Source: a virus
Taxonomy: Duplodnaviria; Heunggongvirae; Uroviricota; Caudoviricetes
Direction: 5' to 3' (one strand)
Length of the DNA: 20,040 nucleotides
IMG/VR virus record: IMGVR_UViG_2667527582_000006
Shown here: positions 6,614 to 20,040 of the stretch, piece after piece
Numbering within the stretch: the stretch's first letter is position 1
Layout: each line of letters opens with the position of its first letter
The notes under the pieces: generated by a model
Databases searched by the model: none
What the model saw: only the letters and a program-made list of their open reading frames with translations
Told to the model about the DNA's origin: nothing
Position numbers and translations under genes: made by a program

Positions 6614-6676
6614 GTTTTGATTTTAAAACACAGATGGTTTTGTTTCTTGACTTTCTTTGGTTTTGATTATTAAACT
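6612..6676. promoter_or_regulatory. Putative OR-like operator/promoter region between cI and cro
   Basis: ATGTTTTgattttAAAACAC at 6612-6631 overlaps the cI start codon; two further GGTTTTG(A/T)TT half-site-like repeats at about 6637 and 6659. Confidence 0.45.
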
Positions 6677-6704
6677 TTTGACGTTCAGTTTTATGGAGCG
6701 ACTC

Positions 6705-6935: not shown

Positions 6936-7357
6936 AAATCAAGCATGAACACATCCGCATGGCGATGAATGCCTGGGCGCATCCGGACGGCGAAAAAGTA
7001 CCGGCTGCGAAAATTACCAAAGCGTATTTCGAGCTGGGAATGACGTTCCCGGAACTGTATGACGACAGCCATCCGGAAGCCCTGGCTCGCAATACCCAGA
7101 AAATTTTCCGCTGGGTAGAGAAAGACACCCCTGATGCAGTTGAAAAAATTCAGGCGTTGTTACCAGCGATCGAAAAGGCAATGCCACCTTTGCTGGTGGC
7201 CAGAATGCGCAGCCACAGTTCAGCTTATTTTCGGGAGCTGGTGGAGACGCGGGAGCGACTGGTGAGAGACGCTGATGATTTTGTCGCAGTGGCAATCGCC
7301 GGTTTCAATCAGATGAACCGTGGTGGCCCGGCAGGAAATGCTGTGGCAGTACATTGA
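6932..7357 (+). CDS. CII-like / YdaT-like regulatory protein (141 aa)
   Basis: ATG overlaps the cro stop (ATGA); G-rich SD; position after cro matches CII/YdaT of Rac-type immunity regions. Confidence 0.5.
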   Translation: MKIKHEHIRMAMNAWAHPDGEKVPAAKITKAYFELGMTFPELYDDSHPEALARNTQKIFRWVEKDTPDAVEKIQALLPAIEKAMPPLLVARMRSHSSAYFRELVETRERLVRDADDFVAVAIAGFNQMNRGGPAGNAVAVH

Positions 7358-7428
7358 CTGACAATAGCCATATCGAATCGCTTCCGGCAACTCGTGAGTA
7401 AAAAGATTCGGTATCAGAAGAGGTGAGT

Positions 7429-8499
7429 ATGGCTAACGCCTGGCTCAGATTATGGCATGACATGCCAAATGACCCTAAGTGGCGAACAATTGCCAGGGTG
7501 TCAGGGCAGCCAATTGCAACAGTGATGGCAGTGTATATCCACCTCCTGGTGAGCGCGTCACGAAATGTCACGCGAGGTCACATTGATGTCACGACAGAAG
7601 ATTTGGCAAGTGCGCTCGACGTGACAGAAGAGGTAATTGATTCAATTTTGCAGACGATGCAGGGGCGGGTACTTGATGGTGATTTAATCACTGGATGGGA
7701 AAAACGCCAGGTGCTGAAAGAGGACAACGGCAATATTTCGCAAACCGCAAAATCTCCGGCAGAGCGCAAGAGGGCGCAGCGAGAGAGGGAAAGAAAGCGG
7801 GAACAAAATGGCGATTGTCACGGCGCGTCACGAAATGTCACGCACATGTCACGACGAGTCACGACAGATAAAGATACAGATAAAGATACAGATCAAGAAG
7901 ATCAAAACACTATGGTCCATGGCGTAAAAAACGCCACGAACCAGGCAGGGGATGTTCAGACCGTCAATCCTGGTCAGCCAGCAGGCACGACACCGGAAGC
8001 CGATTCAGCGTATGCGCTGAAAGCCGATTCGGGCGCTGTGCAGCAGGTGATGACCCCAAGGCCGGAGCAATCACACCAACTGCAGCAGCCTGAAGCCGAT
8101 TCCGCCATTCAGCGGGAAGCCGATCGGGTAGTCCCGGAAAACACCGGGCTGTCTGTGGGACGAGTGGATTATCCGGATGTGTTCGAACAGGTCTGGCGGG
8201 AGTACCCGTTGCGTGCCGGAGCAAACCCGAAGAAATCCGCTTTCAGTGCCTGGAAGGCCAGATTACGCGAGGGGGTGCCACCAGAGGCCATGCTGGATGG
8301 CGTGAGGCGTTACGCAAGATACTTGGCGGCTACCGGGAAAACGGGAACGGAATTTGTTCAGCGAGCGACGACGTTTTTTGGACCGGACCGGAATTTTGAG
8401 AACCCCTGGTTGCTCCCGGTAAGCGGCACGAACAACCAGCGTTGTGTGAATCATATTTCTGAACCGGATACCGAAATTCCACCGGGCTTCAGGGGGTAA
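7429..8499 (+). CDS. Replication initiator, lambda O-like (replisome organiser N-terminus), containing the origin iterons
   Basis: N-terminus MANAWLRLWHDMPNDPKWRTIARVSGQPIATVMAVYIHLL typical of the phage replisome-organiser N-terminal domain; GAGGTGAG SD; internal iteron arrays. Confidence 0.75.
   Translation: MANAWLRLWHDMPNDPKWRTIARVSGQPIATVMAVYIHLLVSASRNVTRGHIDVTTEDLASALDVTEEVIDSILQTMQGRVLDGDLITGWEKRQVLKEDNGNISQTAKSPAERKRAQRERERKREQNGDCHGASRNVTHMSRRVTTDKDTDKDTDQEDQNTMVHGVKNATNQAGDVQTVNPGQPAGTTPEADSAYALKADSGAVQQVMTPRPEQSHQLQQPEADSAIQREADRVVPENTGLSVGRVDYPDVFEQVWREYPLRAGANPKKSAFSAWKARLREGVPPEAMLDGVRRYARYLAATGKTGTEFVQRATTFFGPDRNFENPWLLPVSGTNNQRCVNHISEPDTEIPPGFRG
7556..7593 (+). repeat. Iteron cluster 1: four GTCAC(G/A) repeats at 10-11 bp spacing
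   Basis: Copies at about 7557, 7567, 7577 and 7588; the 18-mer CGTCACGAAATGTCACGC recurs identically at 7826-7843. Confidence 0.6.
7817..7888 (+). repeat. Iteron cluster 2 (five GTCACG repeats at 10-11 bp spacing) followed by GATAAAGATACA x2 tandem repeat; candidate ori
   Basis: Copies at about 7817, 7827, 7837, 7848 and 7858, then GATAAAGATACAGATAAAGATACA and an A-rich stretch, all inside the O-like ORF. Confidence 0.6.
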
Positions 8500-8539
8500 G
8501 TGTTGATTTCTGGTCATGAGGTAATTTTCAGGAGGGCTT

Positions 8540-8962
8540 GTGGCAAAAGTTTTTACACAAGAAGAGCGAGAAAAAATTAAAGGGCAGGTTGTTGAACTCG
8601 TACGCCAGAGTGGGCGTGAGACGTTACGGCAACTGGAAGTCAAGACAGGTGCGACAAGATATCTGATGAGCGTTCTCGCAAGAGAGCTGGTTGCCAGCGG
8701 CGATGTATACAACTCCGGCTACGGGTTATTCCCCTCTGAACAGGCGCGTAAGGACTGGCAAAACGCCCGCAAAAAACTCTCGAGGGCAAAGGTGAAGAAA
8801 CCTGCTGTGGTTGATCCGGACCTTATCTGGTCATCACCTGACGGAGAAATACGTCGCTACGACAGTCGCCTAAACATAATCTGTCGCGAGTGCCGGAAGA
8901 GTGAAGCTATGCAGCGTGTACTGGCTTTCTATCAGGGTAATTTTCAGGAGGCGGTACTGTGA
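8540..8962 (+). CDS. Hypothetical protein (140 aa), replication-module position
   Basis: GTG start with AGGAGG 4 nt upstream; basic, possibly DNA-binding; no recognised motif. Confidence 0.5.
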   Translation: MAKVFTQEEREKIKGQVVELVRQSGRETLRQLEVKTGATRYLMSVLARELVASGDVYNSGYGLFPSEQARKDWQNARKKLSRAKVKKPAVVDPDLIWSSPDGEIRRYDSRLNIICRECRKSEAMQRVLAFYQGNFQEAVL

Positions 8963-9019
8963 GTGAAATTAGCTATCAGGCTTCAATTACCGCTGGCATT
9001 CGCATCAAAGGAGAGGAGC

Positions 9020-9376
9020 ATGGAAATAAAACCAGAGGATGAGTTAAGCAATATCGTTTTATTTCCGGTAAAAGAGGATGACCCTCGTAATCAGGTTAAT
9101 TTTCTTTATGAGCCATCGGAAAGACCATATTGTCATCACGCCTCTGTCCGGGTTGACGAAAAAGAGCGTCAGGTCCGCTGTAAAATCTGCGGTGCAGTTG
9201 TGGAGCCATTTGACTGGATGCTCTCTGTGGCGAAAAGAGAAACCAGACTGGCAGATGATGTAAGGCTCTTGCGTCAGGAGGAGCGGGAAAGGCGAAAAAA
9301 TATAGAAAAGCTAATTCAGATTGAGCGTAACGCGAAAGCGCGGATACGCAGGGCGACAAAATCCAGAACTGAATAA
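9020..9376 (+). CDS. Hypothetical protein (118 aa) with Cys/His cluster and basic coiled-coil-like C-terminus
   Basis: ATG at 9020 with AGGAGAGGAG SD; CHHASVRVDEKERQVRCKICG possible zinc-binding; the track ORF begins at an upstream GTG (8963). Confidence 0.5.
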   Translation: MEIKPEDELSNIVLFPVKEDDPRNQVNFLYEPSERPYCHHASVRVDEKERQVRCKICGAVVEPFDWMLSVAKRETRLADDVRLLRQEERERRKNIEKLIQIERNAKARIRRATKSRTE

Positions 9377-9469
9377 TTAAATTTAGCTCTGTTAAAAATT
9401 TAATCCTTAACCGGAGGGATTTCTGCACCCTCAGAACATCAGGAGGCCGCCCGAAAGGGCGGTAGTTAA

Positions 9470-9652
9470 ATGCGAAAGTTTAAAATAATTATTGAAACGG
9501 GAATAGCCGGTGGAGATTTCGAGGATGAATTCGAAGTGGATGATGATGCGACGCCTGATGAAATACATGACGAAGCAAAAGATATTTTCTTTAACTACTG
9601 CAATTACTCATATCACGAAATAAAAGACGAAGAGGAAGAACAAAATGGCTGA
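9470..9652 (+). CDS. Small highly acidic protein (60 aa)
   Basis: MRKFKIIIETGIAGGDFEDEFEVDDDATPDEIHDE...; SD AGGAGG separated from the ATG by a GNRA-loop hairpin. Confidence 0.45.
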   Translation: MRKFKIIIETGIAGGDFEDEFEVDDDATPDEIHDEAKDIFFNYCNYSYHEIKDEEEEQNG

Positions 9653-9821
9653 TTTTGGTTCAACTAAATACAACGTCAGTTTTGAAGAATGGCATGAACT
9701 GTTAATGGACTATGCAGAGTTACGTGGTGGCAGTGCTGCTGATGCTGAAGCATGGCGTGATGATTATGAAGCAGGAAAAACTCCGGTCGAAGCATATTGT
9801 GATGAGTGGGGCGATGAATGA
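9645..9821 (+). CDS. Small acidic protein (58 aa), not in the ORF track
   Basis: Manual translation MADFGSTKYNVSFEEWHELLMDYAELRGGSAADAEAWRDDYEAGKTPVEAYCDEWGDE; GAGGAAGAA SD; start overlaps the upstream stop and its stop overlaps the next ATG (ATGA). Confidence 0.4.
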   Translation: MADFGSTKYNVSFEEWHELLMDYAELRGGSAADAEAWRDDYEAGKTPVEAYCDEWGDE

Positions 9822-10134
9822 GCGAGGTTAATTATCAGGAAGGGCATGAAACGGCGGGGCAAGCAAAAACAGTGGCATGGCGATATCGCTACGTGAAAAA
9901 AAAGGCGTTACGGACTTTCAGGGGAAGTAGTGGTCTGGTGACTGGAAATATGTACCGAAAAAAGAGGATTGTAACGACAGGCCGAACTATGAAATTCAGG
10001 CCTTATTCACTGCCCCGCCAGTCCCGGTTACATCAGAAGAACTGGTTAAAGCTGTGCACTTTTATGAACAACTAAAACGCGAAAATCCACCAGCATCCGG
10101 AAACCTGATTACAGATTCCCAGATAAGGCAATGA
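9818..10134 (+). pseudogene. Hypothetical gene with apparent frame disruption: ATG frame 9818-10075 and a more protein-like -1 frame from 9931 to 10134
   Basis: Annotated frame after the A8 tract (9896-9903) is K/R-rich and junk-like; the -1 frame encodes ...DWKYVPKKEDCNDRPNYEIQALFTAPPVPVTSEELVKAVHFYEQLKRENPPASGNLITDSQIRQ but has no start codon. Confidence 0.3.
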
Positions 10135-10304
10135 GCTACCTGGCGCAGAACGGGCTGATAAGTATGGGGAATGTTTTACGATGAATATTTAGACTAAAGA
10201 GTTTGTAACGCTATGTAAGTGATTTTTTCTGGTTTAGATATTTATATGTCCGGCCAAATTGAGGTGTGTTTAAATGTAATTGCACATTGATTGTAGGAGG
10301 AATA

Positions 10305-10484
10305 ATGAAAAACGCATTGCAGTTTTTGTTTGTTGCGTTCTGGTTGTTCGTATCATGTATGCCCATCATCTTCACAGCAAGGTATATGGAAAAAGTTGAT
10401 GTTTTGATATTAATATTTGGATATATAAATGCCCTTTTTTTAGGGGTGTTCATGGCGGTCATGTGCATTGAATACTGGCGGTAA
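10305..10484 (+). CDS. Small hydrophobic membrane protein (59 aa, two predicted TM segments) in an AT-rich moron
   Basis: MKNALQFLFVAFWLFVSCMPIIF...LILIFGYINALFLGVFMAVMCIEYWR; strong AGGAGG SD; AT-rich surroundings. Confidence 0.5.
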   Translation: MKNALQFLFVAFWLFVSCMPIIFTARYMEKVDVLILIFGYINALFLGVFMAVMCIEYWR

Positions 10485-10629
10485 ATACAGCGAACGCCAT
10501 TGGTTTAGTTGGATATTTACTGTGCCGGACAAAAACGGTTTGCGGGGAAATCTTAGTTAAGTAGAATGACTGCGGGTGCTTGAGGCTATCTGTCTCAGGC
10601 ATGAACACCAAAAGGCAGATAGAGAAAAG

Positions 10630-10693
10630 CCCCAGTTAACATTACGCGTCCTGCAAGACGCTTAACATTAATCTGAGGCCATATCTATGCGAC
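10630..10693 (-). ncRNA. Putative Sok-like antisense RNA of the hok locus (extent approximate)
   Basis: Minus-strand promoter-like TTGACC (10729-10724), 18-nt spacer, TAATCT (10705-10700); the transcript would be antisense to the leader-ORF start region, as in hok/sok. Confidence 0.3.
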
Positions 10694-10746
10694 ACATAGA
10701 GATTAGCCTCTTACGGACCGAAAGGTCAAGGAGAAGCAGGCTATGA
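10687..10746 (+). CDS. Putative mok-like leader ORF (19 codons), translationally coupled to hok
   Basis: ATG at 10687; stop TGA overlaps the hok ATG (cuAUGA). Confidence 0.3.
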   Translation: MRHIEISLLRTERSRRSRL

Positions 10747-10898
10747 AGCAGCAAAAGGCGATGTTAATCGCCCTGATCGTCATCTGTTTAACCGTCATAG
10801 TGACGGCACTGGTAACGAGGAAAGACCTCTGCGAGGTACGAATCCGAACCGGCCAGACGGAGGTCGCTGTCTTCACAGCTTACGAACCTGAGGAGTAA
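10743..10898 (+). CDS. hokD: Hok-family type I toxin (HokD/RelF-like, 51 aa)
   Basis: MKQQKAMLIALIVICLTVIVTALVTRKDLCEVRIRTGQTEVAVFTAYEPEE: single TM helix and conserved Hok periplasmic tail with Cys. Confidence 0.85.
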   Translation: MKQQKAMLIALIVICLTVIVTALVTRKDLCEVRIRTGQTEVAVFTAYEPEE

Positions 10899-10966
10899 GA
10901 GACCTGGCGGGGGAGAAATCCCTCGCCACCTCTGATGTGTCAGGCATCCTCAACGCACCCGCACGT

Positions 10967-10993
10967 AACCCGCTTCGGCGGGTTTTGTTTTTT
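10967..10993 (+). terminator. Rho-independent terminator of the hok transcript
   Basis: CCCGC-TTCG-GCGGG hairpin followed by TTTTGTTTTTT. Confidence 0.7.
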
Positions 10994-11065
10994 CCTGGCA
11001 TTCTGGTTTACAATTCGCACGCCAGCCTGAACAACTGGCACCTGCTGCGCCAGCAGAGACAACCG

Positions 11066-11344
11066 ATGGCGCACGATACCAAATTACACAATTCTAATGA
11101 TTCTGCCGTCTTTGCCAGTAGGTGCGGACGGCGTTTTCACGCATTCAAATCAGACTGGTTCCAGCATCCTCCATGCACTGAAGAGCAGGCGGAATGGATA
11201 ATTCAGTGTTACCGCAGGCGCGGATACGAGGTTAAGAAAGCTCTTAGCCTCGACTACCGTCACTGGATAATCTCAGTCAGACTCCCTTACTCCGAACGCC
11301 CACCGCGTTCATCCCGCACATACCAGCAACGGATCTGGAGGTAA
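11066..11344 (+). CDS. Hypothetical small protein (rem-like position between hok and ydfU)
   Basis: ORF in frame with track ORF 10937..11344; the first ATG downstream of the hok terminator is at 11066; stop abuts the ydfU-like start. Confidence 0.45.
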   Translation: MAHDTKLHNSNDSAVFASRCGRRFHAFKSDWFQHPPCTEEQAEWIIQCYRRRGYEVKKALSLDYRHWIISVRLPYSERPPRSSRTYQQRIWR

Positions 11345-11345
11345 C

Positions 11346-12395
11346 GTGCGGGTATTACTTCGACCTGTTCTGGTACCGGAACTCGGGGTGGTGATCGTTA
11401 AGCCGGGCCGTGAATCCATGCCGGTATTCCACAATACCCGGGTACTGGTGGAGCCGGAACCGAAAAGCATGCGTAATCTGCCGTCCGGGGTCGTTCCTGC
11501 CGTTCGCCAGCCGCTGGTGGAAGACAAAACATTGCTGCCGTTTTTCAGTAACGCACGGGTGATTCGTGCTGCTGGTGGTGCTGGTGCATTGTCTGACTGG
11601 CTGTTGCGCCATATTAAATCCTGCCAGTGGCCACACGGCGATTATCACCACAGTGAAACCGTCATTCACCGTTATGGTACCGGCGCAATGGTGTTGTGCT
11701 GGCACTGCGACAACCAGCTGCGTGACCAGACATCCGAATCACTCGAGCAACTTGCTCATCAAAACCTGTCAGCATGGATGATTGACGTCATCGGTCACGC
11801 AATAAGCGGTACGCAGGAGCGTGAATTATCTCTGGCTGAATTATCCTGGTGGGCGGTCCGAAATCAGGTGGCGGATGCGCTACCTGAAGCGGTATTACGT
11901 CGCTCGCTGGGATTACCAGCGGAAAAAATCCGCTCAATGTACCGCGAAAGCGACATCGTACCGGGAGAGCAGACCGCCACCAGCATATTGAAACAGCGCA
12001 CAAAAAATCTTGCACTGTTGCCTCACGCCCACCAGGAACAACACCCACTACAGGAAAGGACGGTGGTAAGCATCACCGTTGATCCTGAGTCTCCGGAATC
12101 TTTCATGAAGCTACCTAAACGTCGCCGCTGGGTTAAGGAGAAATACACTCGCTGGGTGAAGACACAGCCGTGTGCTTGCTGCGGTATGCCAGCCGACGAT
12201 CCGCATCATCTGATTGGTCACGGGCAGGGCGGAATGGGAACCAAAGCACATGATCTTTTTGTGTTGCCTTTATGCAGAAAGCATCACGACGAACTGCATA
12301 CGGATACCGTGGCATTTGAAGAGAAGTATGGCTCCCAACTGGAGCTGATTTTTCGATTTATCGATCACGCGCTGGCAATTGGTGTGCTGGCCTAA
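11346..12395 (+). CDS. ydfU: DUF968-family prophage protein (YdfU-like, 349 aa) with C-terminal Cys/His-rich HNH-like segment
   Basis: GTG start with GGAGG SD; C-terminal CACCGMPADDPHHLIGHGQGGMGTKAHDLFVLPLCRKHHDELH; size and position match remembered ydfU. Confidence 0.7.
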   Translation: MRVLLRPVLVPELGVVIVKPGRESMPVFHNTRVLVEPEPKSMRNLPSGVVPAVRQPLVEDKTLLPFFSNARVIRAAGGAGALSDWLLRHIKSCQWPHGDYHHSETVIHRYGTGAMVLCWHCDNQLRDQTSESLEQLAHQNLSAWMIDVIGHAISGTQERELSLAELSWWAVRNQVADALPEAVLRRSLGLPAEKIRSMYRESDIVPGEQTATSILKQRTKNLALLPHAHQEQHPLQERTVVSITVDPESPESFMKLPKRRRWVKEKYTRWVKTQPCACCGMPADDPHHLIGHGQGGMGTKAHDLFVLPLCRKHHDELHTDTVAFEEKYGSQLELIFRFIDHALAIGVLA

Positions 12396-12412
12396 TTTTG
12401 TGGAGTAAGTTG

Positions 12413-12459
12413 ATGCGTGATATTCAGATGGTTCTTGAGCGTTGGGGAGCGTGGGCGGC
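12413..12459 (+). CDS. Antitermination protein Q-like, N-terminal fragment only (truncated by the assembly gap)
   Basis: MRDIQMVLERWGAWA... with GGAG SD; reading frame runs into the N tract. Confidence 0.5.
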
Positions 12460-12469
12460 NNNNNNNNNN
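12460..12469. other. Assembly gap (10 N)
   Basis: Run of n characters in the sequence. Confidence 0.97.
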
Positions 12470-12665: not shown

Positions 12666-13928
12666 ATGGCGCTCACTGACGCTAAAATCCGTGCCGCTAA
12701 ACCGGATGAAAAACCTTATAAACTTGCCGACAGCGGCAACATGTTCTTGCTCGTTCACCCTAACGGCTCTCGCTACTGGCGGCTCCGCTATCGGTTTCTG
12801 GGCAAAGAGAAAACGCTCGCTCTGGGGGTCTATCCTGAAGTCTCGTTATCAGAAGCAAGGGAAAAACGCGATACGGCGAGAAAGCTGATAGCTGAGGGAA
12901 CTGACCCATGCGAACAGAAAAGGATCAAAAAGTCGGTACCCGAAACAGCTCAGACATTTGAAGGCATCGCAAGACAGTGGCATAAGAGCAACAAAAAATG
13001 GTCAGCCTCACACAATGAGAGGATACTGAAAAGCCTCGAAACTCATGTTTTCCCCTTTATTGGTTCACGTGACATTACCACCCTCAGGACTCCCGATTTA
13101 CTTGTTCCCGTTAAAGCAGCCGAAGCAAAGGAGATATATGAAATCGCAGCGCGCCTTCAGCAGCGTATCACTGCAATCATGCGCTATGCTGCCCAGTCAG
13201 GCATTATCACCTATAACCCTGCCTTGGATATGGCTGGCGCGTTAACCACAGTGAAACGCCAGCACCGCCCTGCCCTCGCCTTAAATCGCATTTCAGAGCT
13301 TCTTGAACGACTGGATGCCTACAGAGGACAACCTCTCACCCGGCAGGCAACTAAACTCACCCTGCTTATCTTCATCCGTTCCAGCGAACTACGCTTTGCC
13401 AGGTGGTCTGAGATCGACTTCAAGAAAGCCATGTGGACCATTCCTCCTGAGCGGAAACCTATTGAAGGGGTCAAGTATTCCCATCGTGGCTCAAAAATGC
13501 GAACAGAGCATCTTGTGCCACTATCTACTCAGGCGGTGAATATACTGAAGCAGATCCACACTATCAGCGGAGAACATGAACTGATTTTCACCGGCGATCA
13601 CAATCCATGGAAACCCATGAGTGAGAACACTGTAAATAACGCACTGCGTCTGATGGGCTATGATACAAAGGTCGATGTCTGTGGTCACGGCTTCCGGGCA
13701 ATGGCCTGTAGTTCGTTGATTGAGTCAGGTCTTTGGTCCAGAGATGCGGTAGAACGGCAGATGAGCCATATGGAACGCAATTCGGTGAGGGCGGCGTATA
13801 TTCATAAAGCGGAACATCTGGATGAGCGCAAGCTGATGTTGCAGTGGTGGGCTGATTTTCTGGATGCCAATCGGGAAAGGGGAATTACGCCGTTTGACTA
13901 TGCGAAGATCAACCGGGGTAATATGTAG
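12666..13928 (+). CDS. P4-type (CP4-like) tyrosine integrase
   Basis: 420 aa; N-terminal MALTDAKIRAAKPDEKPYKLADSGNMFLLVHPNGSRYWRLRYRF arm-binding signature; C-terminal HGFRAM...RAAY catalytic motifs; AGGAGA SD. Confidence 0.85.
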   Translation: MALTDAKIRAAKPDEKPYKLADSGNMFLLVHPNGSRYWRLRYRFLGKEKTLALGVYPEVSLSEAREKRDTARKLIAEGTDPCEQKRIKKSVPETAQTFEGIARQWHKSNKKWSASHNERILKSLETHVFPFIGSRDITTLRTPDLLVPVKAAEAKEIYEIAARLQQRITAIMRYAAQSGIITYNPALDMAGALTTVKRQHRPALALNRISELLERLDAYRGQPLTRQATKLTLLIFIRSSELRFARWSEIDFKKAMWTIPPERKPIEGVKYSHRGSKMRTEHLVPLSTQAVNILKQIHTISGEHELIFTGDHNPWKPMSENTVNNALRLMGYDTKVDVCGHGFRAMACSSLIESGLWSRDAVERQMSHMERNSVRAAYIHKAEHLDERKLMLQWWADFLDANRERGITPFDYAKINRGNM

Positions 13929-13988: not shown

Positions 13989-14095
13989 ACCTAATCTGCA
14001 GGCAGCTCTGTTCCATAGGCGGAAGTTTATCTTTGTAGCCTAGATGCCAGTTAGGAAGAAAATAGAGACAGGAAAGATGATGACTAAATCAGTCT

Positions 14096-14118
14096 CCCAC
14101 CCGCACTGTGCGGGTGGG
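14096..14118. repeat. GC-rich hairpin (9-bp stem CCCACCCGC / GCGGGTGGG), possible terminator in the convergent intergenic region
   Basis: Perfect inverted repeat with 5-nt loop; lies between the convergent integrase and MTase genes. Confidence 0.35.
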
Positions 14119-14458
14119 ATATGTCTTTCCGAGAGAATACCGGCGGCAGCGAGCATCGTTAATTTTAGCTACAAAAGCTGTCCGGAGATGGCGGGTCAAG
14201 ATCAGTCGGAAGATCTCTAAAAGTGGATGGGCCGTTTTGCTGGGATTCTTAGATTGGCAAAAAAGTGGTGAAGCCATCAGATAGGAAGTGGATGGCGCAG
14301 TATTCAGTCTAACACTGAGGAATATTGTGATAATGAAAAGGCTACATATGTAGTGATGTGATTTACTCCCATAGCAAACGCAAACTGTGGCAGTATTACA
14401 TTGGCTGCTTCAGGAAAGGGGGCATCACATCACGACATTTTCTTCCACTGCAGGGTCA

Positions 14459-15775
14459 TTAGCCTGCTGTTCGCTCCAGACCCTGGTTCTTACCAGCCAG
14501 TATTTCGGCTTTTTTCATAGTTTCGACCAACTGTTCCGAGACAGCACGGATGACATTCATGCAGACAGAGTTGCCAAATTGCTTGTAGATCTGGCCCTGT
14601 GAAACAGCATCGACGATGTAGTCGTCAGGGAATCCCTGTAGACGTGCACATTCGCGCGGAGTTAGCTTGCGTGGGTTCCTACCCAAATGTGACTGGTCAA
14701 TCAGGATTTCGGAGCCGTCCTTGTAATAACGTGCACTGATGGTATTAGTGTATTCGCTGTCCTTGTTGAAAAGAGAATAGCCGAAACCGTTACCTTTCTT
14801 TTCGTGTTCCAGTTTCCGTTTCTGGTGGCCTATCCACAGTCTATCCGAGATGGTATATCTGTCTTGTGATAGAGGCAGACGATCGAGGTCTTCCAGAATG
14901 TCACCAACACGGGTCGGAGTCATAGGAGGTACCGGCCATCTGAATACACTGTCGAAATCCACGCCCCTATAATAGTCACGGTCAAAACCAACGATGAAAA
15001 TACGTTCACGGTTCTGGGGGGCACCGAAGTCACCTGCACGCAGTACACGGTAATCAACCCAGTAATTGAGTTTTTCGGACAGAGCATTGCGGGCATCCTC
15101 ACTAATCGGGATATCGTCCGGAACGGAATGGGTTCCATTGCCCCGCAGGATATCGAGAATGGTTTTCAGGGTACGACCCTTATCATGTCCCTGCAGTTGC
15201 TTGACATTTTCCAACATGAATGCCTTTGGACGCTTGGCTGTCATTATCCGCTGAATTTCGAAGAACATGGTTCCACGGGTATCGCTGAAACCTTTTTTCA
15301 AACCGGCCTGTGAAAAAGCCTGGCATGGAAATCCGCCAAGCAGTACATCGTGATCAGGAATGTCGGATGCCGGAATTCTAGTGATGTCACCTTGGGGCAT
15401 TTCGCCGAAATTCGTTAGATAGGTCTTCTGGGAGAACTTGTCCCATTCGGATGAGAATACACAGTGCCCTCCCTGCTGCTGATAAGGAAGACGAATACCT
15501 CCGATACCAGCAAACAGATCGATGAAGGTGAAATTGCATTCATTTTCAGGCTTCTGGCGGAAAGGTGCGTTTTCCAGATATTCAGTCATCTTCTTTTCCA
15601 CATCGAGAATGGCCTGCCATTTGGCGGAAGACGGTTCATGTTCCTCTTCTTCCCATCCTCGGACTGTACGTTCTCCGGTGGCACCGAGTCCGAGAAGATT
15701 GGCAAATTCGGTGCGACCTATGCCTAATTTTTTTCTCATATTTTTGATATATTGGAATTTATTCTTACTGTCCAT
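14459..15775 (-). CDS. DNA (cytosine-5)-methyltransferase, Dcm/EcoRII/SsoII family, with N-terminal HTH regulatory extension
   Basis: Motif I FIDLFAGIGG, motif IV GGFPCQAFS, ENV, QNRERIFIVG, TISARYYKDGSEILID, TPRECARLQGFPDDY; N-terminal GIGRTEFANLLGLGATGERTVRGWEEEE HTH-like segment. Confidence 0.9.
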   Translation of the reverse strand: MDSKNKFQYIKNMRKKLGIGRTEFANLLGLGATGERTVRGWEEEEHEPSSAKWQAILDVEKKMTEYLENAPFRQKPENECNFTFIDLFAGIGGIRLPYQQQGGHCVFSSEWDKFSQKTYLTNFGEMPQGDITRIPASDIPDHDVLLGGFPCQAFSQAGLKKGFSDTRGTMFFEIQRIMTAKRPKAFMLENVKQLQGHDKGRTLKTILDILRGNGTHSVPDDIPISEDARNALSEKLNYWVDYRVLRAGDFGAPQNRERIFIVGFDRDYYRGVDFDSVFRWPVPPMTPTRVGDILEDLDRLPLSQDRYTISDRLWIGHQKRKLEHEKKGNGFGYSLFNKDSEYTNTISARYYKDGSEILIDQSHLGRNPRKLTPRECARLQGFPDDYIVDAVSQGQIYKQFGNSVCMNVIRAVSEQLVETMKKAEILAGKNQGLERTAG

Positions 15776-15887
15776 CCCATGCTCACCTTATCCGGTTTTA
15801 TTCCCGGCGATAGTATCACTGTACGGATGATCAATCAATGAGGGGGTCTCATGTCTATCGACATTTCTGGGCATAGTCCGAATCTTT

Positions 15888-17162
15888 TCAGACTGTAAAA
15901 ATTTCGCGGGTCAGTTCTACCAGCTTTTCTCCTGTTGAATACAGCCGAAGTAGTTCTAGGGGATCCTGGTAATGGCAATGAATCGGCGGATATTCGGACA
16001 GACAGTCAGCTTCTGTAACCAGAACCTTTCCCCTTTCCGCAACATGGACAGCCCTGAGTGGCTTTTCTGTTCCAGGAAAAATGAAATGGTTTGTGATGTG
16101 GGTACCGACCGGCACTAGGTAAGAAAGCGCCTTCTGGTAGAAAAACTGTTTTACCAGATCCGGCCAACCAGGAGCACTATCCGGTGTCTTCGCATCATAG
16201 TATTTGGCATCTATGATCGCGACGTGCGTTTTTTCTGCATTGTGGAGAACCGTATCCGTTCTCTGGCTCTTGTTGGCAACGGGAACAAACCTGTCACTGC
16301 CGGCCCGATACACGGGAATAGGCAATTTATTGTTAACTCGGTATTTACCCACCAAGCATTCATCCAGCATGGCTTCCCACAGACTGTGAAACTTCCTGAC
16401 ACCGATAAGAACCCCGCCATTCCGCATTCCTCTCCCTGTTTCAAGATACATGATCAGTCTCCGCAAAAGGAAAATATCCCTTTCGGAATAGCTGAACTGC
16501 AGTTCTCTTCTTAGGTGTACAACCCATGAGAAAACATTTCCCTCAGGACGCGGAACATTCTGCAGTCGTTCAGGAGTGCCCTGACTGCCTGTCCAGAGCA
16601 TTCCGTATACCGGATAGAGCTCCCTCATTACAGAGGCATGAATCTTTGCTGTCTCGCTATCGGTGAGGTAGCGCGAACGTGTGGTTACAGGATCGATATA
16701 TACAGGCCCAGATGGGCTAGTATAGGCAGTCCCTCGGGCAATTGTCTCCGGCCATACAACTTTTCCGGAGTTGGTTGTATCGACTCTAATCCGGCGGACA
16801 TAGAGACCATTCGTCTGATAGTCGTCAATCAGTGCAGTTGCCAACGACAGGGATTCACCACCGATAAGTCCGGTTCCTGCATCCCCATCAAAAACACCGG
16901 TGTCTCTATCTCGGTAGAATTTCAGGAGTGAGCGGAGCAGATAATGTGCTGAAAGAGCCTGCGATTCACGAGAAGAACTGTTATTTCGTGGCAGAAATAC
17001 AGCCAGACCTCCACTGAAAGACATGACTCCACAGAAATGGATTTTCTGCATGTCGGGGGCCAGCAGCCCCCTGTTTCTCAGCTCATCGAGCACGGTCGCA
17101 GGAATACTGCGATCGGTGACAGGTGTCCTGTCTGAAAGATACAGAATATCAGCTGGCAACAT
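15888..17162 (-). CDS. McrC-like PD-(D/E)xK nuclease subunit
   Basis: 424 aa; C-terminal HVAIIDAKYY matching the (D/E)xK catalytic core; start overlaps the upstream AAA+ gene by 14 nt. Confidence 0.7.
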   Translation of the reverse strand: MLPADILYLSDRTPVTDRSIPATVLDELRNRGLLAPDMQKIHFCGVMSFSGGLAVFLPRNNSSSRESQALSAHYLLRSLLKFYRDRDTGVFDGDAGTGLIGGESLSLATALIDDYQTNGLYVRRIRVDTTNSGKVVWPETIARGTAYTSPSGPVYIDPVTTRSRYLTDSETAKIHASVMRELYPVYGMLWTGSQGTPERLQNVPRPEGNVFSWVVHLRRELQFSYSERDIFLLRRLIMYLETGRGMRNGGVLIGVRKFHSLWEAMLDECLVGKYRVNNKLPIPVYRAGSDRFVPVANKSQRTDTVLHNAEKTHVAIIDAKYYDAKTPDSAPGWPDLVKQFFYQKALSYLVPVGTHITNHFIFPGTEKPLRAVHVAERGKVLVTEADCLSEYPPIHCHYQDPLELLRLYSTGEKLVELTREIFTV

Positions 17163-19089
17163 CTTGCGGATCCCTGTTCATGTCAACAGGAGTGCCCACC
17201 CCTTCAAGTCTGTTCTCTACGGCAGTGGAGAAAACAGCCATGTCATTGCGAAATGCTGCAGATAGGTTGCCGAACGTTCTGAAGGTAGACGCAAATATTT
17301 TCTGGTGTCCGACATGTCTCAGCACATCATCCCACAAATAGATGAACAGTTTTCCGCCAAGGGCAGCTTTCGCTGCTTCCCTATTTTCCAGTTCTTTAGA
17401 ATCTAGGAAAAACGGGCCGATCAGACGATCCTCTGCTATTTCACATTCGACAAGGGTGTCATTAATAATTTGAGCAAAATCGCGCCAGAGTACCGAATAT
17501 TTTCCTGAATTGGTGGTGAAAACGATTTCGGTTTGTGGGATCTCCGGTTTTGATAAATCGATTGGTAGATATTCGAAATTCCAGCGCCGTTTGAATGCAG
17601 TATCCAGCGGCATAACTGCCTGATCACTGCTGTTCATGGTAGCCAGTAGAGACATATTGGACGGGATCCGTAAGCTATCGACAGGAGTACATCCCATAGT
17701 ACCTAGTTCCGTATTTATATACTCGATCATATCCGGATCAGTGGCATTGATGCTGTAGGTACTCGTTCCATCAGGCTCCCTGTCTAGAAGCTGGAAAAGC
17801 TCGCCGAAGACAGCTGCAGCAGAAGCACGGTTGATTTCTTCGATAATGAGACAGACCTTTCTGTCTGGACGAGCAATGGCCAGTATGAGTGCGCAGGTAA
17901 AGGGGCCTGGTCTGAAACTGTAGGTTATGCTGCTTTCTCCCTGTTCATTCTTTTCCATTTTAGGCTTCAGGGCACCGACAAAATCGTTATGCTGAGTATC
18001 AGGATGGAAAACTGTGACAATCTTTTCTGCACCGTCACTCATTTCACCATGGACCCTGTAGCTTTTTCCCGTACCGGGTGCCCCATAGAAGATTCTGTTC
18101 GTTCCACCGGTCACTCTAGGTCCGGATACGGAGGCTCTGGTCGATGACTCGAAAAAGAACTTGCCCTCTCTGTTCCGGATACTCATCCCCAGCCATAAAC
18201 CGGAAACCAGAACCGATATTTTTTCAAGTGAATCGGGAGTATCCAAGAGACCCTTTCTGATGAAAATATATTTCTCCAGCGGAACAGAAAAATGGACGGG
18301 ATTCTGGACATACAGCGCATTGCCGGGTTCCCTGGATGGGCGGAGAAGAAATGCCCTGTCTATATCATTCCATGAAACAAATTCGGCATCGGGGTCAGTC
18401 CCCAGTAAAGGCTCAAACTGACCGGACCAGCCAATGGTTGTCATTATTCTGAACAGCAGTTCATCCCCATCAGGAACACTGAACATATAAGGAAGACTGG
18501 GCATATATCTCCTTTGAAGGTAATCATATGTTTCTTGAGAACGCACCAGATCAAGAATCAGGGTACCGAGTGTTTCCGAGCTTACATTCGGGACCGGCAA
18601 TGATGCCAGCAAGACCGATTTGACAAAATCATCGGATTGCCTATAACTCTTTTTCCCAGTTTTTGAGCTCGTGTTTATTAGATTTTTTGCCTCAAGTCTT
18701 GTTCTGGGATCTTTGAAAGCCCAGAAAAAGTTACTGCGGCTGTAGATGTCCAGCGAAACGAGCGCCTGCTCGTTTGACGTTCCGCTTTCGATCATTGCTT
18801 CGAATTCTGCCGGAAACATATTTTTTTTGATTTCTTCGAATACAGAGATGTAGTTGTCCAGTAGTCTTACAAATGGCCCAATCTTTAGCATATACATCAG
18901 ATACTGGCATGGTATATAACAGTGATACCCGCTTCCAGTTTTCATCCGTGCTGTATGGTCCAGCAATGTCAGTCCGGTTGTTGATAGAACCGTTCTTGTT
19001 TCATCATCGAATCCGATCTCATCGAATTGCCATGCCGATTCAGGTTCATTTTTGAACCAGTTCATCACCATATCCAGTTCTGAAAGCAT
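17149..19089 (-). CDS. McrB-like AAA+ (AAA_5) NTPase with about 330-aa uncharacterised N-terminal domain
   Basis: Walker A GAPGTGKS; Walker B/McrB signature LIIEEINRASAAAVFGELFQLLDR; NxxD-like MNSSD; N-terminal 330 aa without recognisable motif. Confidence 0.75.
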   Translation of the reverse strand: MLSELDMVMNWFKNEPESAWQFDEIGFDDETRTVLSTTGLTLLDHTARMKTGSGYHCYIPCQYLMYMLKIGPFVRLLDNYISVFEEIKKNMFPAEFEAMIESGTSNEQALVSLDIYSRSNFFWAFKDPRTRLEAKNLINTSSKTGKKSYRQSDDFVKSVLLASLPVPNVSSETLGTLILDLVRSQETYDYLQRRYMPSLPYMFSVPDGDELLFRIMTTIGWSGQFEPLLGTDPDAEFVSWNDIDRAFLLRPSREPGNALYVQNPVHFSVPLEKYIFIRKGLLDTPDSLEKISVLVSGLWLGMSIRNREGKFFFESSTRASVSGPRVTGGTNRIFYGAPGTGKSYRVHGEMSDGAEKIVTVFHPDTQHNDFVGALKPKMEKNEQGESSITYSFRPGPFTCALILAIARPDRKVCLIIEEINRASAAAVFGELFQLLDREPDGTSTYSINATDPDMIEYINTELGTMGCTPVDSLRIPSNMSLLATMNSSDQAVMPLDTAFKRRWNFEYLPIDLSKPEIPQTEIVFTTNSGKYSVLWRDFAQIINDTLVECEIAEDRLIGPFFLDSKELENREAAKAALGGKLFIYLWDDVLRHVGHQKIFASTFRTFGNLSAAFRNDMAVFSTAVENRLEGVGTPVDMNRDPQDVAS

Positions 19090-19116
19090 ACTTGTCCCGT
19101 CCTTGCATGAGAAAAA

Positions 19117-20040
19117 TTAGTCATACTTGATCCAGAGATTTCTGGATATTGTCTGTCGCATGTTTTCAATAAATTTCTTGTTCTGGTCCGAAAACTGAGA
19201 GTTTTCATACTGCCCCATAAAAAACAGCAATTCGGCCAGTGCACAGCCCTGGTCTTTCGCCTGATTTTTCATCACGGGATGTTCAGTATTGATGGTAATG
19301 AAATGATCGTCCCCGTAACCAGGTTCCCACAATGAACCGTCGGCTGTTTTACCGAAACGAATATCGATGTCGTCAGGAGCAGTCATCATTACCCTAAATC
19401 TAGGCAGATTGCCGCTTTTTCCAGAAAACAGGAGCCTAAATTCGAGTAGGGCATTGAATATGATAGCCAAGGCATCACTGAAACCTGAACGGTAAATATT
19501 ATAACGGTCGGCAATGATATTACCGAACATGTCAGTATTGTCCTGCCCGATGGTGTCACATCCCTGAATGTTGTTCACCAGATCCTTTACCGGACTCGGC
19601 ATGAATAGACGGGCATACTTTTTCCCTTGGTGAGCAAGCGATTTTGCGATCCTATCACCGGAAAACCTGAACTCTGAAAGGCCCAGAAGCTCCGCGATTT
19701 CATATATCATACGGACAATTCTGCAATTTTCAGGCAGATGTTCATCCACCCACGTGGACAGTGCTGGTATTTCCGCTTTAAGCTTGTCGGTTGGAAGATT
19801 TGTCACTTCCAGCCCGAAGGTACTCTCGAATGACTCTTTTTCGCTGAAAACGGCAGCGCTTGCTGCTACCTGATAAACAAAATCTGCAATTATCAGATCT
19901 GATTCATCGAATATTCGATTGAACAGGTCAATCGGCAACGGAATCCTGTTCTGCCAGAAAATCAGTCCATCTACCCTGTAACTGTGGTTTTTGTCGTAAA
20001 GGTAACGTTTGAAATCGGCCAGATCGTATTCATAATTCAT
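19117..20040 (-). CDS. Hypothetical protein (307 aa), first gene of the McrBC-like/MTase cluster
   Basis: ORF begins with ATG exactly at the window edge and ends 27 nt upstream of the McrB-like start; no motif recognised. Confidence 0.5.
   Translation of the reverse strand: MNYEYDLADFKRYLYDKNHSYRVDGLIFWQNRIPLPIDLFNRIFDESDLIIADFVYQVAASAAVFSEKESFESTFGLEVTNLPTDKLKAEIPALSTWVDEHLPENCRIVRMIYEIAELLGLSEFRFSGDRIAKSLAHQGKKYARLFMPSPVKDLVNNIQGCDTIGQDNTDMFGNIIADRYNIYRSGFSDALAIIFNALLEFRLLFSGKSGNLPRFRVMMTAPDDIDIRFGKTADGSLWEPGYGDDHFITINTEHPVMKNQAKDQGCALAELLFFMGQYENSQFSDQNKKFIENMRQTISRNLWIKYD

What the first reader, a model, noticed from the sequence alone, without database searches (positions are those of the whole stretch)
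14459..20040. Candidate uncharacterised restriction/defence operon: unknown 307-aa gene, McrB-like NTPase with novel N-terminus, McrC-like nuclease and HTH-fused C5-methyltransferase
Four co-directional minus-strand genes are tightly packed: a 27-nt gap, then a 14-nt overlap, then 112 nt before the MTase. The sequence shows McrB (Walker A, IIEEINRA...VFGEL) and McrC ((D/E)xK) signatures next to a Dcm/SsoII-family m5C MTase. Classical McrBC restricts methylated DNA, so linkage to a cognate m5C MTase suggests either an LlaJI/BsuMI-type system, where a McrBC-like engine cuts unmodified sites, or a new composite system. Two components (the 307-aa protein and the 330-aa N-terminus of the NTPase) have no recognisable family, and the cluster sits on integrase-borne mobile DNA.
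Basis: partly seen in the sequence, partly recalled or inferred. Interest (0 to 1): 0.85.

Follow-up and report, generated by a model that had tools for sequence, protein, structure and literature searches.

The report
Six-gene CCNGG restriction system, cut short
The four genes are real, but they are the last four of a conserved six-gene DNA restriction-modification system that joins a McrBC-like cutting engine to a SNF2 helicase, a MORC-like ATPase and a protein of unknown fold; the combination is rare, untested and not described in the papers I could search.

Summary
Four minus-strand genes lie at the stated coordinates with the stated spacings, and the McrB, McrC and m5C-methyltransferase signatures are all present.

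- **Methylase:** it is an SsoII/ScrFI-family enzyme with the regulatory HTH and the published CCNGG signature in its target-recognition domain.
- **Operon size:** it is not four genes. The window ends on the ATG of the 307-aa gene. Identical E. coli contigs and 20 loci from other bacteria place a SNF2 helicase and a MORC-like GHKL ATPase directly upstream.
- **The 307-aa protein (X307):** it belongs to the SNF2/GHKL module. Its distant relatives sit in SNF2–GHKL–HNH nuclease–X–Dcm operons that lack McrBC. In the window's clade the HNH nuclease is absent and a McrB/LlaJI.R2 pair is present instead.
- **Minimal version:** a three-gene form (methylase, McrB-like, LlaJI-like) stands alone on a Salinivibrio plasmid.
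- **Unknown folds:** X307 and the 330-aa McrB N-terminus match no Pfam family or solved structure.

The junction with the prophage is a 10-N scaffold gap, not biology. Elsewhere the island sits at tRNA-Phe or tmRNA.

Verdict: a new variant of known kinds, of moderate to high interest.

The parts
19117..20040 (-). X307: a conserved 307-aa protein of unknown fold, third gene of the SNF2-GHKL-X307 module. Its ATG is the last three bases of the window.
18100..19089 (-). N-terminal 330-aa domain of the McrB-like protein. It has an unknown alpha/beta fold and is presumed to be the DNA-target or adaptor domain.
17149..18099 (-). AAA+ GTPase motor domain of the McrB-like protein (aa 331-646).
   Evidence: Pfam AAA_5, NCBIfam McrB, and PDB 6hz4/6ut6 McrB. 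Walker A, Walker B, NxxD and the RRW motif are invariant in 17 loci.
15888..17162 (-). LlaJI.R2-family, McrC-like PD-(D/E)xK nuclease. It overlaps the McrB-like gene by 14 nt.
   Evidence: Pfam RE_LlaJI at 6.2e-32 over residues 43-367. D303, D318, A319 and K320 are invariant in 17 of 17 loci. It is 44% identical to the annotated 'LlaJI family restriction endonuclease' of the Salinivibrio plasmid.
15810..15838 (-). Putative methylase promoter: TTGATT (15838-15833), 17-nt spacer, TACTAT (15815-15810), with TG at 15818-15817.
   Evidence: Read from the sequence. The same layout is seen in L012 and in the Salinivibrio plasmid. It falls below the threshold of the consensus scan, so it is inferred only.
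15789..15807 (-). Operator-like motif CCGGGAATAAAACCGGATA, which contains a CCNGG site, between the -10 element and the methylase start codon.
   Evidence: The motif CCNGG-N5-6-AAAACCGGATA was found in 17 of the 19 six-gene loci searched and in the 3-gene plasmid; it was missed in L018 and L026, and the L026 match lies outside the operon. There is one copy where the methylase is co-directional and two copies about 64 bp apart in most divergent methylase/SNF2 intergenic regions (L010, L023 and L027 gave one). The N of CCNGG varies among loci (A, C, G or T).
14459..15775 (-). SsoII/ScrFI-family m5C DNA methylase with an N-terminal regulatory HTH (aa ~10-58, nt 15602-15748). Predicted site: CCNGG.
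   Evidence: Pfam DNA_methylase at 1e-94, with HTH_3 weak at 0.019. It is 52% identical over aa 10-420 to M.Kpn2kI (= M.SsoII), including the HTH region (PMC3695355). It is 63-64% identical to methylases paired with LlaMI-family CCNGG enzymes. The TRD signature GNGF-x13-TI-x3-YYK lies at aa 328-352 (PMC3346939).
14095..14119 (.). Perfect 11-bp GC-rich hairpin between the convergent integrase and methylase genes; a likely bidirectional terminator.
   Evidence: Terminator-like scan.
12666..13928 (+). P4-type tyrosine integrase of the island that carries the system.
   Evidence: Pfam Arm-DNA-bind_3, Phage_int_M and Phage_integrase. In other E. coli genomes the same island abuts tRNA-Phe.
12460..12469 (.). 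Run of 10 N: a scaffold join between the Qin-like prophage and the island.
   Evidence: Identity to the other E. coli copies of the island stops exactly here.

Best explanation
The region is the 3' two-thirds of a six-gene, NTP-dependent restriction-modification system carried on a P4-type integrase island.

Shown here:
- **Methylase.** It is an SsoII/ScrFI-family m5C enzyme with a regulatory HTH and the CCNGG signature in its target-recognition domain.
- **Cutting engine.** It is a McrB-like AAA+ GTPase with intact motor motifs and a new-fold 330-aa N-terminus, plus a LlaJI.R2-family PD-(D/E)xK nuclease.
- **Upstream genes.** A SNF2 ATPase, a MORC-like GHKL ATPase and the 307-aa protein X307 lie upstream. 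These five genes keep the same order in 18 of 20 non-E. coli loci; one further locus is rearranged and one is degraded.

Inferred:
- The methylase marks host CCNGG sites. Through its HTH it represses its own promoter at the conserved operator, and in the divergent layout it coordinates the restriction genes, as in SsoII/Ecl18kI.
- The McrB-like hexamer recognises unmethylated target DNA through its N-terminal domain, recruits the LlaJI.R2-like nuclease, translocates on GTP and cuts, as in LlaJI and PcaI.
- SNF2, GHKL and X307 form a second ATP-driven DNA-tracking or clamping module. In sister systems that module works with an HNH nuclease. Here it has lost the HNH and is coupled to the McrBC-like nuclease.
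For: - **Gene content and order:**. All 16 GTDB species loci plus V. cholerae and metagenome loci carry SNF2, GHKL, X307 and a McrB-like gene, and all but the degraded L018 also carry a LlaJI.R2-like gene. The order is the same in 18, with L013 rearranged. The GHKL and X307 genes overlap by 4 nt in E. coli.
- **Families:** RE_LlaJI 6.2e-32, AAA_5, DNA_methylase 1e-94. SNF2-rel_dom 4.5e-50 and HATPase_c_3 4.3e-30. MzaB-like GHKL at 2.2e-42 and 5.7e-50. Eukaryotic MORC2 is the best PDB sequence match.
- **Active sites:** all catalytic motifs are invariant in 17 loci.
- **CCNGG prediction:** 52% identity to M.Kpn2kI/M.SsoII (PMC3695355). 63-64% identity to methylases paired with LlaMI-family enzymes (PMC3346939). 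The TRD signature with x13 spacing is present in all 17 loci, whereas Dcm has x15. A CCNGG with variable N sits in the conserved operator.
- **Precedents:** PcaI is a CCNGG methylase plus a McrBC-like enzyme that restricts unmethylated DNA and phage (PMC8989522). LlaJI is the founding example (PMC1459862).
- **Modularity:** a three-gene form without SNF2/GHKL/X307 exists on Salinivibrio pM138.2, with the methylase 73.6%, the AAA+ part 54% and the nuclease 44% identical. SNF2-GHKL-HNH-X(-Dcm) operons without McrBC also exist, matching class 2 of Iyer et al. 2008.
Against: - No experiment exists for this system or for any SNF2-GHKL-X operon that I could find.
- The coupling between the SNF2/GHKL/X307 module and the McrBC-like pair rests only on strict co-occurrence, fixed order and the absence of any other nuclease.
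- The McrB-like and nuclease genes are more diverged (41-55% identity) than the other four (57-77%), which could mean looser integration.
- The three-gene system shows that the McrBC-like pair needs no helpers in principle.
- The N-terminal domain has no DNA-binding fold that I could recognise, so its role in target recognition is an assumption.
- The HTH match to Pfam is below the curated cut-off.
- The methylase promoter is below the scan threshold.
Confidence: 0.6

Rival explanations
1. Two separate systems share one methylase. The first is a self-sufficient LlaJI/PcaI-type enzyme (McrB-like plus LlaJI.R2-like). The second is a SNF2-GHKL-X307 module that acts on its own, for example by remodelling or blocking unmethylated DNA without cutting, or that is a nuclease-less remnant.
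For: The three-gene system stands alone on the Salinivibrio plasmid. SNF2-GHKL-HNH-X operons stand alone elsewhere. The McrB/McrC pair diverges faster than the rest. Defence systems are known to nest within each other (Hma embedding).
Against: All 20 non-E. coli loci of this X307 clade carry a McrB-like gene after X307, and 18 keep the full five-gene order. The SNF2-GHKL-X307 trio has no nuclease of its own here, yet all its ATPase motifs are invariant, so it is not decaying. No locus of this clade retains the HNH gene. There is a single methylase and a single operator system.
Confidence: 0.22
2. A methylation-based defence of the BREX/DISARM/Hma type, in which the helicase, the ATPase and the methylase are the core and the McrBC-like pair is an embedded independent Type IV-like passenger.
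For: The composition (helicase, methylase, ATPase) resembles Hma and DISARM. The SNF2 protein hits ZorD, DpdE and DrmD models strongly.
Against: Hma components belong to other families: HmaB is DUF1156 and HmaC is DUF499. The only Hma hit is a partial one, HmaA at 1.4e-12. The GHKL protein did not hit HmaC, and no HmaB model was among the 25 best of 63 PADLOC hits shown for the methylase. A methyl-dependent McrBC would attack the host's own methylated CCNGG sites. The nuclease is RE_LlaJI, the family that works with a cognate methylase.
Confidence: 0.07
3. A classical Type IV McrBC that cuts methylated DNA and merely sits next to an unrelated or orphan Dcm-like methylase.
For: There is sequence similarity to the E. 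coli McrB AAA+ domain and a conventional NxxD GTPase motif.
Against: The methylase is present in every locus examined. No modification-reader domain was found. The nuclease scores 0.037 against the NCBIfam McrC model but 6e-32 against RE_LlaJI. Keeping both stably would be self-destructive if the specificities overlapped.
Confidence: 0.03
4. An inactive relic on a decaying island.
For: It is absent from all 5,426 complete RefSeq E. coli genomes. One E. coli copy has IS66 elements inserted around the methylase (L006). The symbiont locus L018 is degraded and L013 is rearranged.
Against: All six E. coli ORFs are intact and 99-100% identical in six independent assemblies. Every catalytic motif is conserved.
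Confidence: 0.05

Closest known systems
LlaJI (Lactococcus lactis pNP40) and the related BsuMI of Bacillus subtilis
   Same: A McrB-like AAA+ NTPase subunit plus an RE_LlaJI-family, McrC-like PD-(D/E)xK nuclease, working with cognate m5C methylation so that unmodified DNA is cut (PMC1459862).
   Different: LlaJI has two methylases for an asymmetric site and a B3-type DNA-binding N-terminus on R1. Here there is one HTH-fused methylase for a predicted palindromic CCNGG site, and a 330-aa N-terminus with no detectable known fold. Three extra genes (SNF2, GHKL, X307) are also present. Whether the third subunit of BsuMI (YdiR) is related to X307 or to the GHKL protein was not tested.
PcaI of Pectobacterium carotovorum RC5297 (PMC8989522)
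   Same: A Dcm-like m5C methylase shown to modify CCNGG, plus a two-subunit McrBC-like enzyme that restricts unmethylated plasmids and phage. It is mobile and sparsely distributed.
   Different: PcaI has three genes and its nuclease subunit is annotated DUF2357, not RE_LlaJI. It has no SNF2, GHKL or X307.
SsoII/Kpn2kI/Ecl18kI and ScrFI/LlaMI Type IIP CCNGG systems
   Same: The methylase is 52% identical to M.Kpn2kI (= M.SsoII) over nearly its whole length, including the 1-71 regulatory HTH region. It is 63-64% identical to methylases paired with LlaMI-family enzymes. It carries the same TRD signature. Most loci have the divergent methylase/restriction layout with operator sites in the intergenic region.
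   Different: The restriction partner is not a small homodimeric Type IIP enzyme but a five-gene NTP-dependent apparatus. The operator sequence (CCNGG-N5-6-AAAACCGGATA) differs from the SsoII 15-mer GGACAAATTGTCCT.
MORC/paraMORC + SWI2/SNF2 + Dcm restriction-modification operons predicted by Iyer, Abhiman and Aravind 2008 (PMC2292703)
   Same: A GHKL+S5 ATPase next to a SNF2-family helicase and a cytosine methylase. Sister operons of the X307 family carry the HNH nuclease those authors describe, sometimes with Vsr.
   Different: That paper never mentions McrB, McrC or AAA+ partners. In the window's clade the HNH nuclease is replaced by a McrB-like/LlaJI.R2-like pair. In the passages I retrieved from that paper, which I searched only by terms, no protein corresponding to X307 is named.
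Mza and Hma candidate defence systems (PADLOC)
   Same: The GHKL protein is most similar to MzaB (2.2e-42 and 5.7e-50). The helicase-methylase-ATPase theme resembles Hma.
   Different: The five genes around the GHKL gene are SNF2, X307, the McrB-like and LlaJI.R2-like genes and the methylase, and none of these hit another Mza model. HmaB (DUF1156) and HmaC (DUF499) are different families.

Membership tests
LlaJI-type restriction-modification system | R1 subunit with a McrB-like AAA+ GTPase domain | tested here: met
   Pfam AAA_5 at 2.8e-10, NCBIfam McrB at 1.2e-7, PDB McrB at 3.5e-8. Walker A, Walker B and NxxD are invariant.
LlaJI-type restriction-modification system | R2 subunit of the RE_LlaJI family with a PD-(D/E)xK site | tested here: met
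   PF09563 at 111.6 bits against a cut-off of 23.6. D303, D318 and K320 are invariant.
LlaJI-type restriction-modification system | Cognate m5C methylase(s) in the same locus | tested here: met
   A methylase is present in all 20 non-E. coli loci and in the E. coli copies. There is one methylase, not the two of LlaJI.
LlaJI-type restriction-modification system | B3-type sequence-specific DNA-binding domain at the R1 N-terminus | tested here: not met
   [not shown]
LlaJI-type restriction-modification system | Cuts unmodified DNA and is blocked by the cognate methylation | not testable with these tools
   Needs transformation or plaquing assays with and without the methylase.
Classical Type IV McrBC | N-terminal reader of modified bases (SRA-like/DUF3578, YTH, EVE) | tested here: not met
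   No such Pfam hit and no structural match.
Classical Type IV McrBC | McrC of the McrBC/DUF2357 family | tested here: not met
   Only RE_LlaJI in Pfam. The NCBIfam McrC model gives E=0.037 and 13 bits against a cut-off of 338.
Classical Type IV McrBC | No cognate methylase | tested here: not met
   The methylase is conserved in every locus.
SsoII/ScrFI-family CCNGG m5C methylases | Ten-motif m5C catalytic core | tested here: met
   PF00145 at 318 bits. FxGxG, the PC motif, ENV, QxRxR and GN are invariant.
SsoII/ScrFI-family CCNGG m5C methylases | TRD signature G(K/N)GF-x13-T(I/L)-x3-YYK | tested here: met
   GNGFGYSLFNKDSEYTNTISARYYK lies at aa 328-352. The signature is present in 17 of 17 loci and in M.Kpn2kI. 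Dcm has x15 spacing (signature taken from PMC3346939).
SsoII/ScrFI-family CCNGG m5C methylases | N-terminal regulatory HTH (residues 1-71 of M.SsoII) | tested here: met
   aa 10-58 align with residues 9-57 of M.Kpn2kI (= M.SsoII). Pfam HTH_3 at E=0.019 is below the cut-off, and the NCBIfam MqsA-type HTH gives 4.9e-4.
SsoII/ScrFI-family CCNGG m5C methylases | Operator in its own promoter region | tested here: inconclusive
   A conserved motif lies at 15789-15807 and at equivalent places in 17 of 19 six-gene loci and the 3-gene plasmid. Its sequence differs from the SsoII operator, and binding is untested.
SsoII/ScrFI-family CCNGG m5C methylases | Methylation of CCNGG in vivo | not testable with these tools
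   Needs bisulfite, EM-seq or nanopore methylome sequencing of a carrier strain.
MORC/paraMORC-SNF2-Dcm operons (Iyer et al. 2008) | GHKL ATPase with an S5-like transducer | tested here: met
   HATPase_c_3 at 4.3e-30. The MzaB model aligns over residues 13-360. MORC2 is the best PDB match. The N, DxGxG and GxxGxG motifs are invariant. The gene lies outside the window.
MORC/paraMORC-SNF2-Dcm operons (Iyer et al. 2008) | Adjacent SWI2/SNF2 helicase and cytosine methylase | tested here: met
MORC/paraMORC-SNF2-Dcm operons (Iyer et al. 2008) | HNH or EcoRII-like nuclease in the operon | tested here: not met
   No HNH in this clade. It is present in sister operons, with Pfam HNH at 22.9-24 bits against a cut-off of 21.4.
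Hma (PADLOC) | HmaA, HmaB and HmaC family members | tested here: not met
   There is only a partial HmaA hit at 1.4e-12. The GHKL protein's sole PADLOC hit is MzaB, so it is not HmaC. No HmaB model is among the 25 best of 63 hits shown for the methylase. HmaB is DUF1156 and HmaC is DUF499.
Mza (PADLOC/NCBIfam) | MzaB together with its partner genes | tested here: not met
   The GHKL protein scores 170 bits against an MzaB cut-off of 850. None of the other five proteins hit an Mza model.

The most novel reading that the evidence does not exclude
The six proteins form one dual-motor restriction machine of a kind not yet described. A MORC-like GHKL clamp, a SNF2 translocase and the new-fold subunit X307 find or hold unmethylated CCNGG DNA. 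They hand it to, or license, a GTP-driven McrB-like/LlaJI.R2-like nuclease through the new-fold 330-aa N-terminal domain of the McrB-like protein. In evolution, a McrBC-type nuclease replaced the HNH nuclease of an older SNF2-MORC system. This would be the first functional link between bacterial MORC-type ATPases and McrBC engines. It would also offer a tractable bacterial model for how MORC ATPases read DNA methylation state.
Probability: 0.35. Interest if true: 0.78.

Novelty: new variant of a known kind. Interest (0 to 1): 0.6.

Why it matters
- **Bacterial MORC biology.** Bacterial MORC/paraMORC-SNF2-Dcm operons were predicted in 2008 to be restriction systems and the ancestors of eukaryotic MORC chromatin silencers. 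I found no experimental work on them. This clade is present in E. coli, Vibrio cholerae, Yersinia and Aeromonas, so it is genetically tractable.
- **A built-in comparison.** The methylase is predictable (CCNGG), and natural three-gene and HNH-type variants exist. Together they allow a direct test of what the GHKL ATPase, the SNF2 motor and X307 add to a McrBC-type nuclease.
- **New protein families.** It adds two families without known folds to the defence repertoire.
- **Annotation.** It shows that 'McrBC plus Dcm' neighbourhoods can be misread as Type IV systems.
- **Practical effect.** Carriers would be a barrier to transformation with DNA not methylated at CCNGG.

Tried and rejected
1. A megablast of 14300-20040 against all complete E. 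coli genomes and PLSDB found no match. The context had to come from exact-protein look-ups instead.
2. A homologue search with the N-terminal 328 aa alone returned nothing, even though the full-length protein has thousands of relatives. I treated this as a limitation of the word index, not as evidence.
3. I tested whether the 241-279-aa protein of the sister operons is homologous to the McrB N-terminus. It is not: BLASTP gives E>=0.085 and hhalign a probability of 0.2%. That protein is an HNH nuclease.
4. Hma was considered and rejected on family grounds. Mza was rejected because only the GHKL protein matches.
5. MADS/MANTIS and CoCoNuT were checked in the literature and do not correspond.
6. 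A simple inverted-repeat search of the methylase upstream region found nothing in E. coli. The operator emerged only from comparing loci.
7. The consensus promoter scan did not call a promoter in the 112-nt gap.
8. The AFDB Foldseek library was not available.
10. I could not check whether BsuMI YdiR is related to X307 or to the GHKL protein, because no sequence was at hand and the literature search was uninformative.
11. Insertion of the island into the Qin-like prophage was rejected, because the junction is a 10-N scaffold gap.

Full report
**Observation.** The spacings are a 27-nt gap, a 14-nt overlap and a 112-nt gap, as stated.
- The 646-aa protein carries GAPGTGKS, LIIEEINRA, VFGELFQLLDR and the McrB GTPase motif MNSSD. 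It matches Pfam AAA_5, NCBIfam McrB and the solved E. coli McrB structures over residues 323-509.
- The 424-aa protein matches Pfam RE_LlaJI (6.2e-32, residues 43-367) and has D303...D318-A-K320.
- The 438-aa protein is a C5 methylase (1e-94).
- The 307-aa protein matches nothing in Pfam, NCBIfam or PADLOC.
- A P4-type integrase lies at 12666-13928.

**The operon is cut by the window.** The ATG of the 307-aa ORF is the last codon of the window. An exact-protein look-up found the same locus in six E. coli assemblies. Two more co-directional genes lie upstream there: a 616-aa SNF2 helicase and a 532-aa GHKL (HATPase_c_3) ATPase. The stop of the GHKL gene overlaps the start of the 307-aa gene by 4 nt.

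The same five genes (SNF2, GHKL, X307, McrB-like, LlaJI.R2-like) occur in the same order in 18 other loci. These are V. cholerae, an unrelated metagenome and 16 species-representative genomes: Vibrio, Aliivibrio, Photobacterium, Shewanella, Alkalimonas, Amphritea, Glaciecola, Rheinheimera, Celerinatantimonas, Undibacterium and Duganella. One further locus is rearranged (Xenorhabdus) and one is degraded (a mussel symbiont).

The methylase is always present but its position varies. It is divergent upstream of SNF2 in most loci, downstream and co-directional in E. coli and three others, and convergent in Duganella. All catalytic motifs of all five enzymes are invariant across 17 loci.

**The genomic setting.** Window 1-12459 is a Qin-like lambdoid prophage common in E. 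coli. It carries DicF and hok/sok. A run of 10 N at 12460-12469 separates it from the island, and identity to the other E. coli copies of the island ends exactly there. The 'insertion into a prophage' is therefore a scaffold join. In two other E. coli genomes the integrase abuts tRNA-Phe, and in V. cholerae a related island abuts the tmRNA gene. The system is absent from all 5,426 complete RefSeq E. coli genomes and from PLSDB at the DNA level.

**The methylase.**
- It is 52% identical over residues 10-420 to the methylase of K. pneumoniae plasmid pKPN2 and of the 4.2-kb Shigella sonnei plasmids. M.Kpn2kI is identical to M.SsoII, whose residues 1-71 form the regulatory HTH region (PMC3695355).
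- It is 63-64% identical to methylases paired with LlaMI-family enzymes on Acinetobacter and Psychrobacter plasmids. The Psychrobacter paper predicts CCNGG for these and gives a TRD signature, G(K/N)GF-x13-T(I/L)-x3-YYK (PMC3346939).
- The window protein has GNGFGYSLFNKDSEYTNTISARYYK at residues 328-352. So do all 17 loci and M.Kpn2kI. E. coli Dcm (CCWGG; 37% identical) has x15 spacing.
- I therefore predict CCNGG.

**Regulation.** Comparing loci revealed a conserved motif, CCNGG-N5-6-AAAACCGGATA. In the window it lies at 15807-15789, just downstream of a plausible promoter with an extended -10 element (TTGATT-17-TACTAT). In most loci where the methylase and SNF2 genes diverge, two copies about 64 bp apart fill the intergenic region. 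The motif was found in 17 of the 19 six-gene loci searched. It is also present in the Salinivibrio three-gene system.

The central base of the embedded CCNGG varies (A, C, G or T) while CC and GG are kept. That pattern fits either a degenerate half-site or a methylation-sensitive operator. This is inference and has not been tested.

**The two unknowns.**

**What X307 belongs to.** Distant X307 relatives (26-46% identity) sit in a different operon: SNF2, GHKL, a 240-282-aa protein that matches Pfam HNH above the cut-off, the X307 relative, and a C5 methylase (sometimes with Vsr). There is no McrB/McrC pair in that operon.

This is class 2 of the MORC/paraMORC operons predicted by Iyer, Abhiman and Aravind: SWI2/SNF2, GHKL, an HNH or EcoRII-like nuclease, and Dcm. 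One such operon (L034) has a methylase 67% identical to the window's, HTH included.

Conversely, Salinivibrio plasmid pM138.2 carries a methylase 73.6% identical to the window's. It is paired with only a 556-aa AAA ATPase (AAA+ part 54% identical, N-terminus not alignable by BLASTP) and an annotated LlaJI-family nuclease (44% identical). One CCNGG-type methylase lineage therefore serves four kinds of restriction partner:
- small Type IIP enzymes;
- a McrB/LlaJI.R2 pair;
- SNF2-GHKL-HNH-X;
- the window's SNF2-GHKL-X-McrB-LlaJI.R2.

The window's clade looks like the SNF2-GHKL-X system with its HNH nuclease exchanged for a McrBC-type engine.

**Mechanism.** What is shown is the gene content, families, active sites, conservation and modularity. 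The rest is inferred.
- The methylase protects host CCNGG sites and autoregulates through its HTH, as in SsoII/Ecl18kI.
- The McrB-like hexamer and the LlaJI.R2-like nuclease restrict unmethylated DNA by GTP-driven translocation and cleavage, as shown for LlaJI. The same is proposed, on homology with McrBC, for the CCNGG system PcaI.
- SNF2, GHKL and X307 form an ATP-driven tracking or clamping module that has no nuclease of its own here and is coupled to the McrBC-like pair.

The last step rests on strict co-occurrence, fixed order and the loss of HNH. I put the overall model at 0.6 and the coupling at about 0.35-0.4. The main rival, at 0.22, is two modules that share a methylase but act independently.

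**Comparison and novelty.** The system meets the core LlaJI criteria: a McrB-like R1, an RE_LlaJI R2 and cognate m5C methylation. It fails two others: the B3 N-terminus, and the two methylases for an asymmetric site.

It is not classical Type IV McrBC, not Hma (HmaB is DUF1156 and HmaC is DUF499) and not Mza (only the GHKL protein resembles MzaB). I found no paper that describes a LlaJI- or McrBC-type pair joined to a GHKL/SNF2 module. The library lacks most subscription journals, and REBASE, DefenseFinder and PADLOC could not be run on the locus.

I rate it a new variant of known kinds, with two components of unknown fold. My interest score is 0.6. It remains well above ordinary, because the combination is conserved, uncharacterised and experimentally tractable.

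Noticed in passing
window 12460-12469: A run of 10 N. The Qin-like prophage (1-12459) and the integrase island are joined by scaffolding, not by biology. Several 'contigs' of the JRRS/JRSD/JRSG assemblies place the same island in different contexts.
   Followed up: yes
window 15789-15807; L008:6470-6569; L016:6456-6557 and others: The operator-like motif embeds a CCNGG whose central base differs between loci (A, C, G or T) while CC and GG are kept. This suggests the methylase's own target site lies inside its operator, which would allow methylation-sensitive autoregulation.
   Followed up: partly
L031:7806-12305 (Salinivibrio costicola plasmid pM138.2): A three-gene relative (HTH-methylase, 556-aa McrB-like, 481-aa LlaJI-family nuclease) without SNF2, GHKL or X307. 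Its McrB N-terminus resembles that of the Duganella six-gene locus (22% identity, E 1e-9) rather than the 330-aa domain of the window.
   Followed up: partly
L006:13271-20115: In one E. coli assembly, IS66-family elements sit between the nuclease gene and the methylase gene, and again between the methylase and the integrase. All six ORFs nevertheless remain intact.
   Followed up: no
L036:4338-5753; L039:7083-8579: One distant X307 relative is 471 aa and carries a weak C-terminal MORN-repeat hit. Another operon has a second HATPase_c_3 gene right after its X307 relative.
   Followed up: no
L013 and L018: The Xenorhabdus locus is rearranged, with a truncated SNF2 match and the nuclease match elsewhere in the locus. 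The Bathymodiolus symbiont locus looks degraded, with partial SNF2, GHKL and McrB matches and no nuclease.
   Followed up: no
window 4756-4807 (-) and 10574-10745 (+): DicF sRNA and a hok/sok antitoxin RNA lie in the Qin-like prophage part of the window, alongside dicB/ydfABCD-type genes.
   Followed up: no
window 14095-14119: A perfect 11-bp GC-rich hairpin lies between the convergent integrase and methylase genes. In other assemblies a 46-aa ORF is called just beyond it, equivalent to window 14080-14220.
   Followed up: no
[not shown]
   Followed up: no
The word-indexed homologue search found nothing for the N-terminal 328 aa alone, yet full-length homologues cover that region at 35-83% identity. 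A negative result from that tool on a fast-evolving domain is not evidence of absence.
   Followed up: yes
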